Source of the DNA: Aquificaceae bacterium
GTDB taxonomy: Bacteria > Aquificota > Aquificia > Aquificales > Aquificaceae
Reading direction: 5' to 3'
DNA: 64,000 nt
Assembly (NCBI GenBank): GCA_037925075.1
Contig: JAXSNR010000002.1
Span: 416,001 to 480,000, forward strand
Shown one piece after another: positions 14,676 to 35,584 of this stretch. The number at the start of each line of letters is the position of its first letter. The first letter of the stretch is position 1. Made by a program: the position numbers and the translations under genes. The notes under the pieces were generated by a model. That model ran no database searches and was not told the DNA's origin. It was given only the letters and a program-made list of their open reading frames with translations.

Positions 14676-15226
14676 TCAACAGACCTCCAAATAGCCAAAG
14701 CCTTGACCCGTCCTCAACCCAAGCCCATACTGATAGACAAACTCTAATATTTGGGGATTGTCTGTGATTATACTAAACCTTCCAAGAAAAGCCCTTATGT
14801 AGCCTCCGTAGTGCCTTATAAGTTCTTCCTTGAAGTGTTTAAATACGGGGGAAAAGACTTTTATTTTTGGCTCATAGCCTTTTATAGCCTTAAAACGCCT
14901 TTGTATGTTTTCAAGAAGAACTTCTTTAAAGTCTTCTTCTATGGGAATGGCATATATTAGCTTGGGATTGTCCTCATAAAAACCAGGCCTCTCAACCACC
15001 ACAGGAGAAAGGGTTTTAAAGGTACCCTTTGACCAATCCTTTTCCTCTTCTAAAATTATTTCCTTTATAATAAATTCCGCATCGCCTATTTTATGGACCT
15101 GACCTTTTAGACCAATAAGCCCGTTGTATAGCCTTACTCCGTACACTGGATCTCCCGTAGAAATGCGTAGGTTTAAGAACTTTACACCTTTAATAGTTTC
15201 CTCTTTAAAGACTACATGCTTTCCTT
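14676..15226 (-). pseudogene. cas6: 5'-truncated Cas6 endoribonuclease (second cas6, different subfamily)
   Basis: C-terminal G-loop GLGLRTGQGFG and TLSPVVV; the frame stays open upstream (GKHVVFKEE...ISTGDP) until a CRISPR repeat, about 183 codons, with no start upstream of GTG 15146. Confidence 0.8.
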
Positions 15227-31166: not shown

Positions 31167-31504
31167 TTTGGGAAAAAGAGAAAATACGAAGGCATGCACA
31201 AGGTCGTTTTTTAGAACAAAAGCCTTGTATAATATATGTTAAAAAGGTTAGGGGCAAAAAGCCCCTTGACATCTTGGCATTTGAATAGGGCTTTAGCTAT
31301 GCCATAAAGCCATAAAGACATAATTACGGTTTTACGGTAATACGGCGTAGGCTTAAAAGCCTTGTCTCTCAATGGTTTAAATTTGACAATAACATACTCA
31401 ATTTTGCATGACCTGAGGTTTTTGGCAAACTACCTTCATTTGAAAGGGGTGGGGTATTGATAAAAGCTTTGATAGTTCTTATTATTTTTTATGTGCTTGT
31501 GCAG
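31167..31504 (+). repeat. duplicated block: eroded cas6 5' end plus CRISPR leader (copy 1)
   Basis: Near-identical to 35043-35421, with two short deletions in the cas6 part. Confidence 0.92.
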
Positions 31505-32073
31505 GTTTTAAGCCCACTGTGAGGGATGGTGACTAGTCCTCTATTATGCCATCATACGGGGCAAAAATGAACTGTTTTAAGCCCACCGTGAGGGATGGTG
31601 ACCTCAATTAACTCCTGCATTGTTAAGCATTGTTTAGTTTGTTTTAAGCCCACCGTGAGGGATGGTGACGCTTCATGGCTTTAACCTCCTTTAAGGTTTA
31701 TTCTTAGTTTTAAGCCCACCGTGAGGGATGGTGACGCTTCATGGCTTTAACCTCCTTTAAGGTTTATTCTTAGTTTTAAGCCCACCGTGAGGGATGGTGA
31801 CCTCAATTAACTCCTGCATTGTTAAGCATTGTTTAGTTTGTTTTAAGCCCACCGTGAGGGATGGTGACTCACGGTCATTCAAAGGGCAGTGGTTGGAGTT
31901 GTCAGTTTTAAGCCCACCGTGAGGGATGGAGACATAATAAAAGCCAGCCCGCTCCAGTCGTAGTTGTAGTTTTAAGCCCACTGTGAGGGATTGGAAACGT
32001 GAGGGATGGAGACAAATAAATCTTTTGGATAAAATTATTAACAAGTTTTAAGCCTACTATGAGGGATGATAAC
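31505..32073 (+). CRISPR. CRISPR array 1: 9 repeats (GTTTTAAGCCCACCGTGAGGGATGGTGAC), 8 spacers
   Basis: Repeats start at 31505, 31574, 31641, 31707, 31773, 31840, 31905, 31969 and 32045; the last two are degenerate; leader on the left. Confidence 0.97.
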
Positions 32074-33055: not shown

Positions 33056-33643
33056 CTAAGTTAAGATTTCACCTATTTCTACTCCCACCGCACCCGCTTT
33101 TAGCATCTCCTCTATCGCCCTTTCGGAGTCTCCGGGCTTTACATCCACACCCTTTATACCGTCAAGGAGAAGAAAGGCTTGATAGCCAAGGTTTATGGCT
33201 CCAAGCACTGTGTTTTTGACGCAGTAGTCAGTCGCAACGCCACCCACAAAGACCCTTTTAATGCCTCTTTCTCTTAGGAGGCTGTCAAGCACCGTGCCTT
33301 GAAAACCAGAATAGGCGTCAAAGTCTGGGCTTGTTCCCTTTGAGATTATAAAGCGGTTATCGTGGGGGATAAAAAGCTCCTCATGAAACTTTGCACCTTC
33401 CGTGCCTTGCACACAGTGAGGTGGCCAAAGGCCTCCTTGCTCCTTGAAAGATATATGGTTTGGTGGATGCCAGTCCCTTGTGAAGAAAACGGGCAATCCC
33501 AACTTGGAGAATAGCTCTATGTACTTATTAAGCCTTGGCACTATCTTGTCTCCCTCAGGCACAGGAAGGGCTCCGCCGGGCATAAAATCCTTTTGCATAT
33601 CCACCACTATAAGGGCATCCCTTTTGGTAGGTAATACTCTCAT
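33056..33643 (-). CDS. pncA: nicotinamidase/pyrazinamidase
   Basis: VDMQKDF, DWHP, WPPHCVQGT and ATDYCV. Confidence 0.92.
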   Translation of the reverse strand: MRVLPTKRDALIVVDMQKDFMPGGALPVPEGDKIVPRLNKYIELFSKLGLPVFFTRDWHPPNHISFKEQGGLWPPHCVQGTEGAKFHEELFIPHDNRFIISKGTSPDFDAYSGFQGTVLDSLLRERGIKRVFVGGVATDYCVKNTVLGAINLGYQAFLLLDGIKGVDVKPGDSERAIEEMLKAGAVGVEIGEILT

Positions 33644-34284
33644 GGCAAAACCTCCACGGGTACCTCTTCTTTTAATTTAATCTCTTCAAGGCTTACTGAA
33701 CATTTGTATGCCTTTATCTCAAGCCCAAGCCTGTGGTACTCAAAAAGAGCCTCAGAAAAGTCCCTATCCACCTCCCAGTTGGGAGAAAAGACCCGTGCGT
33801 CCTCTCTTTGCACCACAAAGACCACAAGAGGCTTGTAGCCCTCTTTTGATAACTCTATAAGCTTTTTTATATGCTCTTTTCCTCTTTTTGTGGGAGCGTC
33901 TGGGAAAAGGGCTACGCCAGATTTGACAAGGTTTACAGATTTGACCTCAACGGGCCTACCTTCCAAAAGAAGGTCAAACCTCTTATTCCCAAAGCGTGGC
34001 TCAAAGGAAACACAAGAACCCACATACTCCGCATACAACTTGGGAGCTATATGGGAGTCTATGCATACAAGATAGCCATCCTTCTTTGCAAGGACTATTT
34101 CAAAGGGATGTTTTCCCTCTTGCTTTTCCGTTATATAAACCTCATTGTCCTCAAAAAGCAATTCACTAAGCCTTCCCGTGTTTCTTATGTAGGCGGTAAA
34201 GGTTTTACCCTCAAAGGATACAAGGCCTACGAACCTGTTTAGCCTTCTTATAAAGCTTGCCTTTTTAAGCTCTGGAAACCTCAT
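33640..34284 (-). CDS. sfsA: SfsA DNA/RNA nuclease family protein
   Basis: RRLNRF, NTGRL, EVKSVNL and FPDAPTKRG. Confidence 0.92.
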   Translation of the reverse strand: MRFPELKKASFIRRLNRFVGLVSFEGKTFTAYIRNTGRLSELLFEDNEVYITEKQEGKHPFEIVLAKKDGYLVCIDSHIAPKLYAEYVGSCVSFEPRFGNKRFDLLLEGRPVEVKSVNLVKSGVALFPDAPTKRGKEHIKKLIELSKEGYKPLVVFVVQREDARVFSPNWEVDRDFSEALFEYHRLGLEIKAYKCSVSLEEIKLKEEVPVEVLP

Positions 34285-34289
34285 CTTTT

Positions 34290-34380
34290 AGAAAGGCCCC
34301 ACCGGGCGGTGGGGCAAAACAATTAGGGGAGGGAGGGGGAGGGAGTTTCTAATAGCCCCTAATTTTCTGTCCTTTATAGG
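34290..34380 (-). ncRNA. candidate small RNA or structured leader downstream of cas6
   Basis: Consensus promoter upstream, 9-bp stem AATTAGGGG/CCCCTAATT around a C-rich loop, then an 8-bp GC hairpin followed by CTTTCT; no start codon. Confidence 0.5.
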
Positions 34381-34385
34381 GTATT

Positions 34386-34413
34386 ATTATATACAAAAAT
34401 TTTTTCTTGTCAA
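34386..34413 (-). promoter_or_regulatory. sigma70 promoter TTGACA-N16-TATAAT overlapping the cas6 stop codon
   Basis: Both hexamers are perfect consensus on the minus strand. Confidence 0.75.
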
Positions 34414-35138
34414 GGGATCTCATAACACAGTTTTATTACACCCATTCCCATGGTGCATTTTTTACCAACGCCAGAGAACTCTCCAAACTTCAAAAGAGCA
34501 TGGACCAGTTTAGAAAGCTCCCTATCTTCAACACCAAAGATTACATTACCCACAAAGCCCCTTAGCTTTCCAAAGGATAGCTCCACTGTTTCAACCCTTA
34601 TCTTATGTGCCAATATGTACGCATTTGAATAAACGCCGTAGAGTAAGTCTTCTTCTTTTATCGGAAAGGGATGGAAGCTAACCCATTTCCTATATAGGCT
34701 TCTAAAGATAGTTTGAGGGTCTGGGAGAGGATAGTCCCACCTACCTTTTCTGAAAACGGTGGGCTTTATAAAATCCACAGAATAACTCTCTTTTGGTTCA
34801 AGGTTAAGAAGCTCCTCATAAGAGATTGCCTCTTCTTCTCTTATGCCACCGGGTACTATGGGCTTAAGCTCTGAATTTCCAAGTGCATAAGCTTCCTTAG
34901 ATAGGTAGTAGCGACTAACAAGCGGTGGAAAAAGCTCATCCCTCAATAGGCAAAGCCTAAACCATACCTGCCCTTCAGAATTGCCATAGGCTTTTATGCT
35001 AAAGGGCTTTTCCTTTTCTCCATGAAGTTTTTCGGAAATCTCTTTGGGAAATAGAGAAAATACTAAGGCATGCACAAGGTCGTTTTTTAACTCCACATTC
35101 TGTTTGGACCTAAACCTTAACAAAAGCCTTATAGGCAC
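34410..35138 (-). CDS. cas6: CRISPR-associated endoribonuclease Cas6
   Basis: KPFS, PTVFR, PLPDP, GFVG and G-loop GVGKKCTMGMG; next to the leader and array. Confidence 0.92.
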   Translation of the reverse strand: MPIRLLLRFRSKQNVELKNDLVHALVFSLFPKEISEKLHGEKEKPFSIKAYGNSEGQVWFRLCLLRDELFPPLVSRYYLSKEAYALGNSELKPIVPGGIREEEAISYEELLNLEPKESYSVDFIKPTVFRKGRWDYPLPDPQTIFRSLYRKWVSFHPFPIKEEDLLYGVYSNAYILAHKIRVETVELSFGKLRGFVGNVIFGVEDRELSKLVHALLKFGEFSGVGKKCTMGMGVIKLCYEIP

Positions 35139-35421
35139 GTATAATATAATATGTCAGGAAGGTTAGGGGCAAAAAAGCCCCTTGACATCTTGGCATTTGA
35201 ATAGGGCTTTAGTTGTGCCATAAAGCCGTAAAGACATAATTACGGTTTTACGGCAATACGGCGTGGGCTTAAAAGCCTTGTCTCTCAATGGTTTAAATTT
35301 GACAATAACATACTCAACCTTGCATAACCTGAAGCTTTTGGCAAAATACCTTCATTTGAAAGGGGTGGGGTATTGACAAAAGCTTTGATAGTTCTTATTA
35401 TTTTTTATGTGCTTGTGCGAG
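35043..35421 (+). repeat. cas6 5' end plus CRISPR leader (copy 2), with promoter TTGACA-N17-TATTAT at 35373-35401
   Basis: Aligns to 31167-31504; the promoter points into the array. Confidence 0.88.
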
Positions 35422-35584
35422 GTTTTAAGCCCACCGTGAGGGATGGAGACAATTGATAAAACTCTCTGCTTTTTTCTATTCTGTCATTGTTTTAAGCCCA
35501 CCGTGAGGGATGGTGACACAAAATGAACCCCCTTAAACATTTTCTCAAGTAGCAAGTTTTAAGCCCACCGTGAGGGATAGAAAC
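35422..35584 (+). CRISPR. CRISPR array 2: 3 repeats, 2 spacers (38 nt each)
   Basis: Same repeat as array 1 at 35422, 35489 and 35556 (the last ends GATAGAAAC). Confidence 0.95.

What the first reader, a model, noticed from the sequence alone, without database searches (positions are those of the whole stretch)
34290..34413. Candidate crRNA-mimic small RNA directly downstream of cas6
Seen: on the minus strand a perfect TTGACA-N16-TATAAT overlaps the cas6 stop and would drive about 90 nt with no ORF. The sequence reads ...AGGGGCTATTAGAAAC | TCCCTCCCCCTCCCTCCCCTAATT | GTTTTGCCCCACCG-CCCGGTGGGGC-CTTTCT. The left part resembles the 3' end of the local repeat (terminal variants GGGATAGAAAC and GGGATTGGAAAC; last 8 nt TTAGAAAC versus ATAGAAAC). 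The right part resembles the repeat 5' end (GTTTTAAGCCCACCG) and folds into a terminator-like hairpin. The 24-nt insert is made of anti-Shine-Dalgarno-like CCUCC units and is partly sequestered by a 9-bp stem. Known: degenerate mini-arrays next to cas genes (CreA/CreR) guide Cas complexes for regulation. Inference: this may be a type III-A regulatory guide or an RBS-binding sRNA. It could instead be an attenuator leader for sfsA-pncA, whose start is about 11 nt after the hairpin.
Basis: partly seen in the sequence, partly recalled or inferred. Interest (0 to 1): 0.75.

Follow-up and report, generated by a model that had tools for sequence, protein, structure and literature searches.

The report
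Conserved C-rich small RNA, not CRISPR
The flagged stretch is a real small RNA gene kept across a group of hot-spring and vent bacteria; it probably blocks ribosome-binding sites on messenger RNAs, and it sits beside a CRISPR gene only by a local accident of gene order.

Summary
The sequence is as described, but it is not a crRNA mimic. It is a ~90-nt small RNA gene: sigma-70 promoter, unpaired tract with three CCUCC units, U-rich linker, terminator hairpin. Its core is 99% identical in 20 genus relatives and a model finds it in 129 of 151 genomes of the phylum. cas6 lies upstream in only 2 of 66 loci, and 5 near-complete carriers (one closed) showed no Cas6, RAMP or DevR-type Cas7. The hairpin changes by compensatory pairs away from the repeat; sister-family copies lack the 'handle'. 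Two copies match published, uncharacterised A. aeolicus transcripts (n68/Aae-65, n75); Rfam has no family. Best reading (0.62): a trans-acting anti-Shine-Dalgarno sRNA that works like RoxS/RsaE/FsrA. Some paralogs carry Fur-type or CRP/FNR-type promoter boxes; this copy does not. No target was found; the best candidate was not conserved. One metatranscriptome sample has contigs ending near the 'handle' start, too weak to count. The scan had not noted this sequence before, though it noted similar C-rich RNAs in other lineages.

The parts
34408..34413 (-). -35 box TTGACA; also supplies the cas6 stop codon
   Evidence: a promoter match at this place in 64 of 70 family rows
34386..34391 (-). -10 box TATAAT; start site predicted near 34379
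   Evidence: start site inferred from spacing; the published 5' boundary of n68 lies 8 nt after the -10 box of the matching copy
34353..34379 (-). variable purine-rich 5' leader; 34364-34356 can pair with 34329-34321
   Evidence: 46.5% ungapped identity in 20 genus loci; absent from most sister-family copies
34345..34352 (-).
   Evidence: 14 variants in 70 rows, commonest TTAGAAAC 25; absent in sister families
34326..34344 (-). C-rich single-stranded tract with three CCUCC units (proposed anti-Shine-Dalgarno seed)
   Evidence: near-invariant; 2-4 CCUCC units in 50 of 50 rows; predicted unpaired except the last four C
34316..34325 (-). U-rich linker before the hairpin (possible Hfq contact)
   Evidence: Hfq role inferred
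34296..34315 (-). 8-bp GC-rich terminator hairpin with 4-nt loop
   Evidence: 100% of cells paired in 58 distinct rows, 6 of 8 pairs with compensatory change; 7 of 7 pairs in the wider alignment
34287..34295 (-). imperfect U tail; a full run of 5-8 T in sister-family copies
34410..35138 (-). cas6 (neighbour; has no terminator of its own before the RNA gene)
   Evidence: Pfam PF10040; no terminator-like site between
33640..34284 (-). sfsA (downstream neighbour in 35 of 73 loci), followed by pncA-like gene 33056-33643

Best explanation
A stand-alone small regulatory RNA of a family conserved across the class. Shown: own promoter, near-invariant single-stranded C-rich tract, covarying terminator hairpin, independence from neighbouring genes. 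Inferred: it is transcribed as a ~90-nt RNA, possibly trimmed at the 5' end so the whole tract is freed; its repeated CCUCC units pair with G-rich Shine-Dalgarno regions of several mRNAs in trans, probably helped by Hfq through the U-rich linker and tail, blocking 30S binding and speeding decay. Several tandem seeds would give pairings long enough to hold at 65-85 C. The type III-A locus arrived next to it in one sub-lineage; the hairpin then also ends cas6 transcripts.
For: Core 99.3% identical against 75.5% for the first 45 nt of sfsA and 46.5% for the upstream 30 nt in 20 genus loci. Stem varies by compensation while the tract stays fixed. Model R2 hits 68/72 own-family, 41/44 and 0/8 in two other families of the order, 19/25 and 0/1 in other families of the class; five unrelated genomes reach at most 21.3 bits against 35-75 bits. 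36 different upstream gene clusters in 66 loci and 11 downstream arrangements in 73. In the sister family the tract starts 5-7 nt after the -10 box in 19 of the 20 rows with a promoter match (35 rows examined), so tract plus terminator is the whole RNA. 2-4 CCUCC units in 50 of 50 rows; GGAGG occurs in 526 of 1693 predicted start regions against 42 in coding controls. Hfq-family genes in 88 of 90 family genomes; A. aeolicus Hfq binds U-rich RNA (PMC5379935, passages). Published dRNA-seq reads for n68 (476/756) and n75 (158/79) on the C-rich strand (PMC4227106 Table 3). C-rich regions that pair with SD sequences are described for RsaE/RoxS and proposed for cuckoo RNAs.
Against: No target is identified. 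Pairing scores over 1693 start regions show no standout; perfect complements of 10 nt or more fall near a start in only 2 of 73 cases. The best candidate (molybdopterin enzyme large subunit, 11-bp helix) keeps that helix in 1 of 13 genus genomes. The GGAGG count is partly circular because my start picker favoured SD-like starts. The tract fits G-run variants better than the commonest SD. The n75 Northern showed sense and antisense signals of similar strength and sizes off prediction. The tract is low-complexity, so the distant matches could be convergent. No expression data exist for this genome.
Confidence: 0.62

Rival explanations
1. A decoy or sponge: the unpaired C-rich tract titrates a C-binding protein (for example Rho or a KH-domain protein; candidates from my own knowledge) or a G-rich RNA, not mRNA start sites.
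For: Near-invariance over a whole class fits one fixed partner; no conserved mRNA target found; number of UCCC units varies as in multivalent decoys.
Against: Every copy keeps the CCUCC word. Different paralogs sit under different promoter boxes, as base-pairing sRNA paralogs do. No protein partner was tested.
Confidence: 0.15
2. Main role is a cis leader or attenuator of sfsA-pncA: read-through of the weak terminator sets sfsA expression, and the sfsA start region is buried beside the hairpin.
For: sfsA follows within a few nt in 35 of 73 loci; tail is imperfect; the start region is paired in the read-through fold; contigs of a relative join the core to sfsA in 3 of 4 runs of one sample.
Against: The same core and tail lie before a convergent gene in 20 of 73 loci and before unrelated genes elsewhere; sister-family copies have full terminators and other neighbours. 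No alternative anti-terminator fold was seen.
Confidence: 0.07
3. A crRNA mimic (CreA/CreR-like): Cas6 cuts 8 nt before the insert and Csm or Cascade uses the 24-nt insert as a regulatory guide.
For: 7 of 8 match to two terminal repeat variants and 12 matching letters to the repeat 5' end; conservation in the genus begins at the 8-mer; cas6 is adjacent here and in L002; in one RNA sample of a relative, contigs end at 34352 (X4) or run into adapter after 34353 (X3).
Against: Resemblance not significant; 43 of 70 rows have a different hairpin arm; 22 of 70 carriers have no hit to either Cas6 Pfam, 15 of them at least 90% complete; 5 of 5 tested also lack TIGR01877, RAMP and DevR hits, one a closed genome; no target in cas genes or leaders (best 14 of 24, longest exact 8); no handle in sister families; type III mini-arrays were judged degraded in a wide survey (10.1101/2023.03.03.530964, passages). 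In X1 and X2 contigs run past 34352.
Confidence: 0.04
4. The conserved thing is a G-quadruplex on the opposite strand (DNA template or antisense RNA), acting as a transcription block or thermostable structure.
For: The + strand here has four G3+ runs; 35 of 50 rows keep that pattern; antisense reads were reported for n75.
Against: 15 of 50 rows lack four G3 runs but keep CCUCC; promoter and terminator point the C-rich way in all groups.
Confidence: 0.04

Closest known systems
A. aeolicus candidate ncRNAs n68 (= Aae-65) and n75 (Lechner et al. 2014, PMC4227106, Table 3)
   Same: The two published intervals, read on G041:C1, each hold one copy of this family on the same strand, begin just after the predicted -10 box and have matching GC (0.51/0.57 against 0.50/0.55); n68 is annotated beside a permease and an AEC-family permease follows that copy.
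   Different: The paper lists them as separate candidates, conserved in 2-4 of 11 genomes, without function and with unclear polarity for n75. It does not, in the sections I read, note the C-rich tract, their kinship or class-wide spread.
RsaE/RoxS and FsrA/IsrR (C-rich-region sRNAs of Firmicutes)
   Same: Several C-rich regions able to pair with G-rich SD sequences; RoxS is trimmed by about 20 nt at the 5' end, which widens its targets (PMC4409812 passages). Fur-type boxes on some paralogs recall the iron-repressed FsrA/IsrR (search listing only; FsrA details recalled).
   Different: No Rfam match. Here the units form one continuous 19-nt tract and the RNA has one conserved hairpin. This copy has no Fur-type box (score 9 of 14, background).
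Cuckoo/CcsR family of Alphaproteobacteria
   Same: Fixed anti-SD-like C/U motif, covarying stems, several paralogs per genome (PMC4615179 passages).
   Different: Cuckoo RNAs carry CCUCCUCCC in the loops of 2-4 hairpins; here the tract precedes a single terminator hairpin.
CreA/CreR crRNA-like regulators
   Same: Superficial layout of repeat-end, short insert, repeat-start beside cas6.
   Different: CreA/CreR are tied to type I or V-A loci and match a PAM-flanked site at a cas promoter; this RNA is neither tied to cas loci nor matched to one.

Membership tests
CreA/CreR crRNA-like RNA | Located in or tied to a CRISPR-cas locus across relatives | tested here: not met
   cas6 upstream in 2 of 66 loci; carriers without detected cas genes
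CreA/CreR crRNA-like RNA | Flanks are degenerate copies of the cognate repeat | tested here: not met
   p = 0.10-0.24 against shuffles for the best pairings; hairpin arm differs in 43 of 70 rows while pairing is kept
CreA/CreR crRNA-like RNA | Spacer partly matches a cas or toxin promoter next to a PAM | tested here: not met
   longest exact match 8 nt in cas region; best seed match in the genome is inside a tRNA-Ser gene
CreA/CreR crRNA-like RNA | Processed by Cas6 and loaded on the effector | not testable with these tools
   contig ends in one RNA sample are inconclusive
C-rich anti-SD trans-acting sRNA (RsaE/RoxS/FsrA kind) | Independent transcription unit with promoter and terminator | tested here: met
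   published reads for matching copies
C-rich anti-SD trans-acting sRNA (RsaE/RoxS/FsrA kind) | Conserved, exposed C-rich regions complementary to the host SD | tested here: met
   (exposure is a folding prediction)
C-rich anti-SD trans-acting sRNA (RsaE/RoxS/FsrA kind) | Conserved mRNA targets paired at the RBS | tested here: inconclusive
   no standout target; the one candidate followed up was not conserved
C-rich anti-SD trans-acting sRNA (RsaE/RoxS/FsrA kind) | Repression of translation shown by experiment | not testable with these tools
   needs bench work
RsaE/RoxS, cuckoo or any Rfam family (homology) | Covariance-model match at the gathering score | tested here: not met
   no hit on the element in the window; in six homologous loci only two weak hits, E 0.83 and 0.95
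Cuckoo/CcsR | 2-4 hairpins each with CCUCCUCCC in the loop | tested here: not met
   one conserved hairpin, tract outside it
Fur-repressed iron-sparing sRNA (FsrA/IsrR/RyhB kind) | Fur-type box over the promoter | tested here: not met
   this copy scores 9 of 14 and 1 of 62 main copies reaches 12; met in 8 of 8 family-f4 copies and 5 of 6 copies of the second paralog (consensus recalled)

The most novel reading that the evidence does not exclude
In the sub-lineage where a type III-A locus landed beside it, the old housekeeping sRNA has been co-opted: Cas6 cuts it at the repeat-like 8-mer and Csm loads it, so a class-wide anti-Shine-Dalgarno RNA doubles as an endogenous type III guide against G-rich ribosome-binding sites.
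Probability: 0.04. Interest if true: 0.85.

Novelty: new member of a known kind. Interest (0 to 1): 0.48.

Why it matters
My searches found no characterised base-pairing sRNA in this phylum, although nearly every genome of the family has two Hfq-family genes and A. aeolicus Hfq has a solved structure. This family gives a concrete, expressed, class-wide candidate substrate, and paralogs with different promoter boxes that predict iron/peroxide and oxygen-linked control. It makes testable how short anti-SD pairings work at 65-85 C. It also warns that crRNA-mimic calls beside cas6 need a synteny check.

Tried and rejected
Rfam: nothing on the element. Viral contigs and phage records: no match. Pattern was mis-spaced and found nothing; corrected. 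Conserved 5' stem (G-rich leader with the first CUCCC): only 65.6% of cells paired, 1 of 5 pairs compensated, so not claimed. T-arm/tRNA origin: a 13-nt same-sense match to a tRNA-Ser 3' half has E 2.9; treated as chance. Target search by duplex energy and perfect complement: mixed functions, no standout; only 1 of the 30 listed candidates was followed into relatives and it failed. Fur-type box at this promoter: not found. Family f2: R1 hits of 22-26 bits lack the tract-hairpin anatomy and R2 finds 0 of 8; rejected as chance. L099 and L229 were dropped as atypical or chance; six contig-end loci and L043/L045 were left out of the 70-row set. Sequencing runs: four runs, one sample, one study, contigs only, from a relative; they cover 34286-34352 in all four, but cannot show strand, start or level; X1 and X2 continue upstream into unlike sequence, and one X2 contig joins the tract to an unlike G-rich stretch that I did not search; not counted as evidence. 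The 2005 paper that first described Aae-65 is not held and the supplements of PMC4227106 could not be read; Supplementary File 1 of PMC8632094, which covers a Hydrogenobaculum genome, was not visible. Any of these may already say more about this RNA.

Full report
Observation. Neighbours are cas6, sfsA and a nicotinamidase-like gene; cas10-csm2-csm3-csm4-csm5 run the other way from 35612. The genome has two arrays of this repeat, a two-repeat array of another type, a second cas6 at about 14676-15146 and no cas1 hit. The promoter is far beyond chance (17 perfect ones against 0.76 expected). The repeat resemblance is not: p = 0.12 for the right part, 0.17-0.24 for the left part against the two terminal variants, and 4 of 8 letters against the consensus repeat end.

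Distribution. A DNA search found the stretch in 20 of 24 genus relatives, beginning at the promoter and not in cas6. The 65-nt core is 99.3% identical in those 20, against 75.5% for the start of sfsA and 46.5% for the 30 nt upstream. In the family 76 of 90 genomes match at E <= 0.05; I counted 70 with a full-length match. A pattern scan of the species collection gave 61 hits, 53 with the hairpin; 52 of these 53 have Aquificota-type titles, and the 8 without hairpin are chance hits in other phyla. Covariance models reach further: R2 matches 129 of 151 genomes of the phylum (68/72 own family; 41/44 and 0/8 in the other two families of the order; 19/25 and 0/1 in other families of the class), while five unrelated genomes score at most 21.3 bits. 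That f3 and f4 are Hydrogenothermaceae and Desulfurobacteriaceae is my inference from kinship labels and the three families named in PMC4227106; no call names them. These genomes are kin, so counts are not independent.

Not a CRISPR part. cas6 is the upstream gene in 2 of 66 loci with an upstream call; the 66 fall in 36 clusters (seven cluster representatives had no Pfam hit). 22 of 70 carriers have no hit to PF10040 or PF01881, 15 of them at least 90% complete. Five carriers, one a closed genome, also lack TIGR01877, RAMP and DevR hits; most are draft assemblies, where cas loci can be missing. The hairpin is 100% paired in 58 distinct rows with compensatory change at 6 of 8 pairs, and 43 of 70 rows have an arm that differs from the repeat-like one: structure, not repeat sequence, is kept. 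The insert has no match in the cas operon or leaders. In the sister family the tract begins 5-7 nt after the -10 box in 19 of 20 rows with a promoter match (35 examined), leaving no room for a handle. CreA/CreR are defined by cas linkage and a PAM-flanked promoter target (10.1101/2023.03.10.532045, passages), and type III mini-arrays were judged degraded (10.1101/2023.03.03.530964, passages). One result points the other way: conservation in the genus starts at the 8-mer, and in one RNA sample of a relative two of four runs have contigs ending at 34352-34353. That fits 5' trimming by any nuclease and is too weak to count.

Prior sighting. Table 3 of PMC4227106 (sections 11, 22 part 1 and 30 read, plus passages) lists A. 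aeolicus candidates n68 (Aae-65) and n75. Read on G041:C1, those intervals hold the two copies found, on the same strand, starting just after the predicted -10 boxes. So the RNA has been seen as an expressed, uncharacterised transcript; the paper gave conservation in 2-4 of 11 genomes and left n75's polarity open. Rfam has no family. Searches for further description found none; unseen supplements may bear on this.

Mechanism. The invariant part is single-stranded and holds 2-4 CCUCC units in 50 of 50 rows. GGAGG is the common SD core here (526 of 1693 start regions against 42 controls, partly circular). In the full-length fold the last four C of the tract are paired with the leader; removing the leader frees them, as 5' trimming widens RoxS targeting (PMC4409812, passages). 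The U-rich linker, hairpin and tail resemble an Hfq-binding end (own knowledge); Hfq-family genes are in 88 of 90 family genomes. I therefore favour a trans-acting RBS-blocking sRNA (0.62). The weak point is targets: none stood out, and the best one kept its long helix in 1 of 13 genomes. A protein or RNA decoy (0.15), an sfsA leader (0.07), a crRNA mimic (0.04) and an opposite-strand G-quadruplex (0.04) remain.

Paralogs and regulation. Copies in family f4 carry a 7-1-7 palindrome over the -10 box (8 of 8 score 12 of 14 against a recalled Fur-family consensus), as do 5 of 6 copies of the second paralog in genus g8; only 1 of 62 main copies does, and this one scores 9. In this genome the ten best such boxes lie before hemerythrin, DUF3501, two Fur-family genes, AhpC/TSA, COX3, an Fe-S oxidoreductase, and three genes with no obvious metal link, which partly validates the motif. 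A second f3 paralog has ATGAT-N4-ATCAT upstream in 13 of 13 loci (motif taken from those loci, so the count is descriptive), placed like a CRP/FNR class II site (inference). The family thus looks wired to several regulators, while this copy may be constitutive.

Verdict. Real, conserved, previously seen as a transcript but not described as a family in what I could read; a new member of the known C-rich anti-SD kind, not a CRISPR guide. Earlier notes of this scan hold no look-alike sequence but report similar RNA kinds in other lineages; they are unchecked and not counted as support.

Noticed in passing
window 14676-15146 (-): A second cas6 (PF01881) among housekeeping genes (accD-like, scpA), with no array of either repeat type nearby; similar hits occur in many genus relatives.
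   Followed up: partly
window 31167-32070 and 35043-35584: Two arrays with a duplicated ~260-bp leader; the first has two spacers present twice and a garbled end; the genome has a III-A operon but no cas1 hit.
   Followed up: partly
G000:C1:554087-554180: Two-repeat array of a different repeat type with a related leader, no cas-sized operon checked beside it.
   Followed up: no
G000:C1:387676-387864 and a second locus: Nearly all family genomes encode two Hfq-family proteins; I saw only one discussed in the passages read.
   Followed up: no
L226-L228, L230-L234: Family-f4 copies with a Fur-type box (tandem in L232) over the promoter: candidate iron-sparing sRNA.
   Followed up: partly
L210, L213, L217, L220, L235-L238, L240, L241, L243: Second f3 paralog with an ATGAT-N4-ATCAT palindrome upstream; six such loci checked end against topA.
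   Followed up: partly
L172, L211, L214, L215, L221-L223: Copies that start right at the stop of a NapH-like ferredoxin gene with no promoter match: possible 3'-UTR-derived form.
   Followed up: no
window 34323-34352 (run X2, record 6): One RNA contig joins the first 30 nt of the core to an unlike G-rich stretch; could be a library chimera or an sRNA-target join.
   Followed up: no
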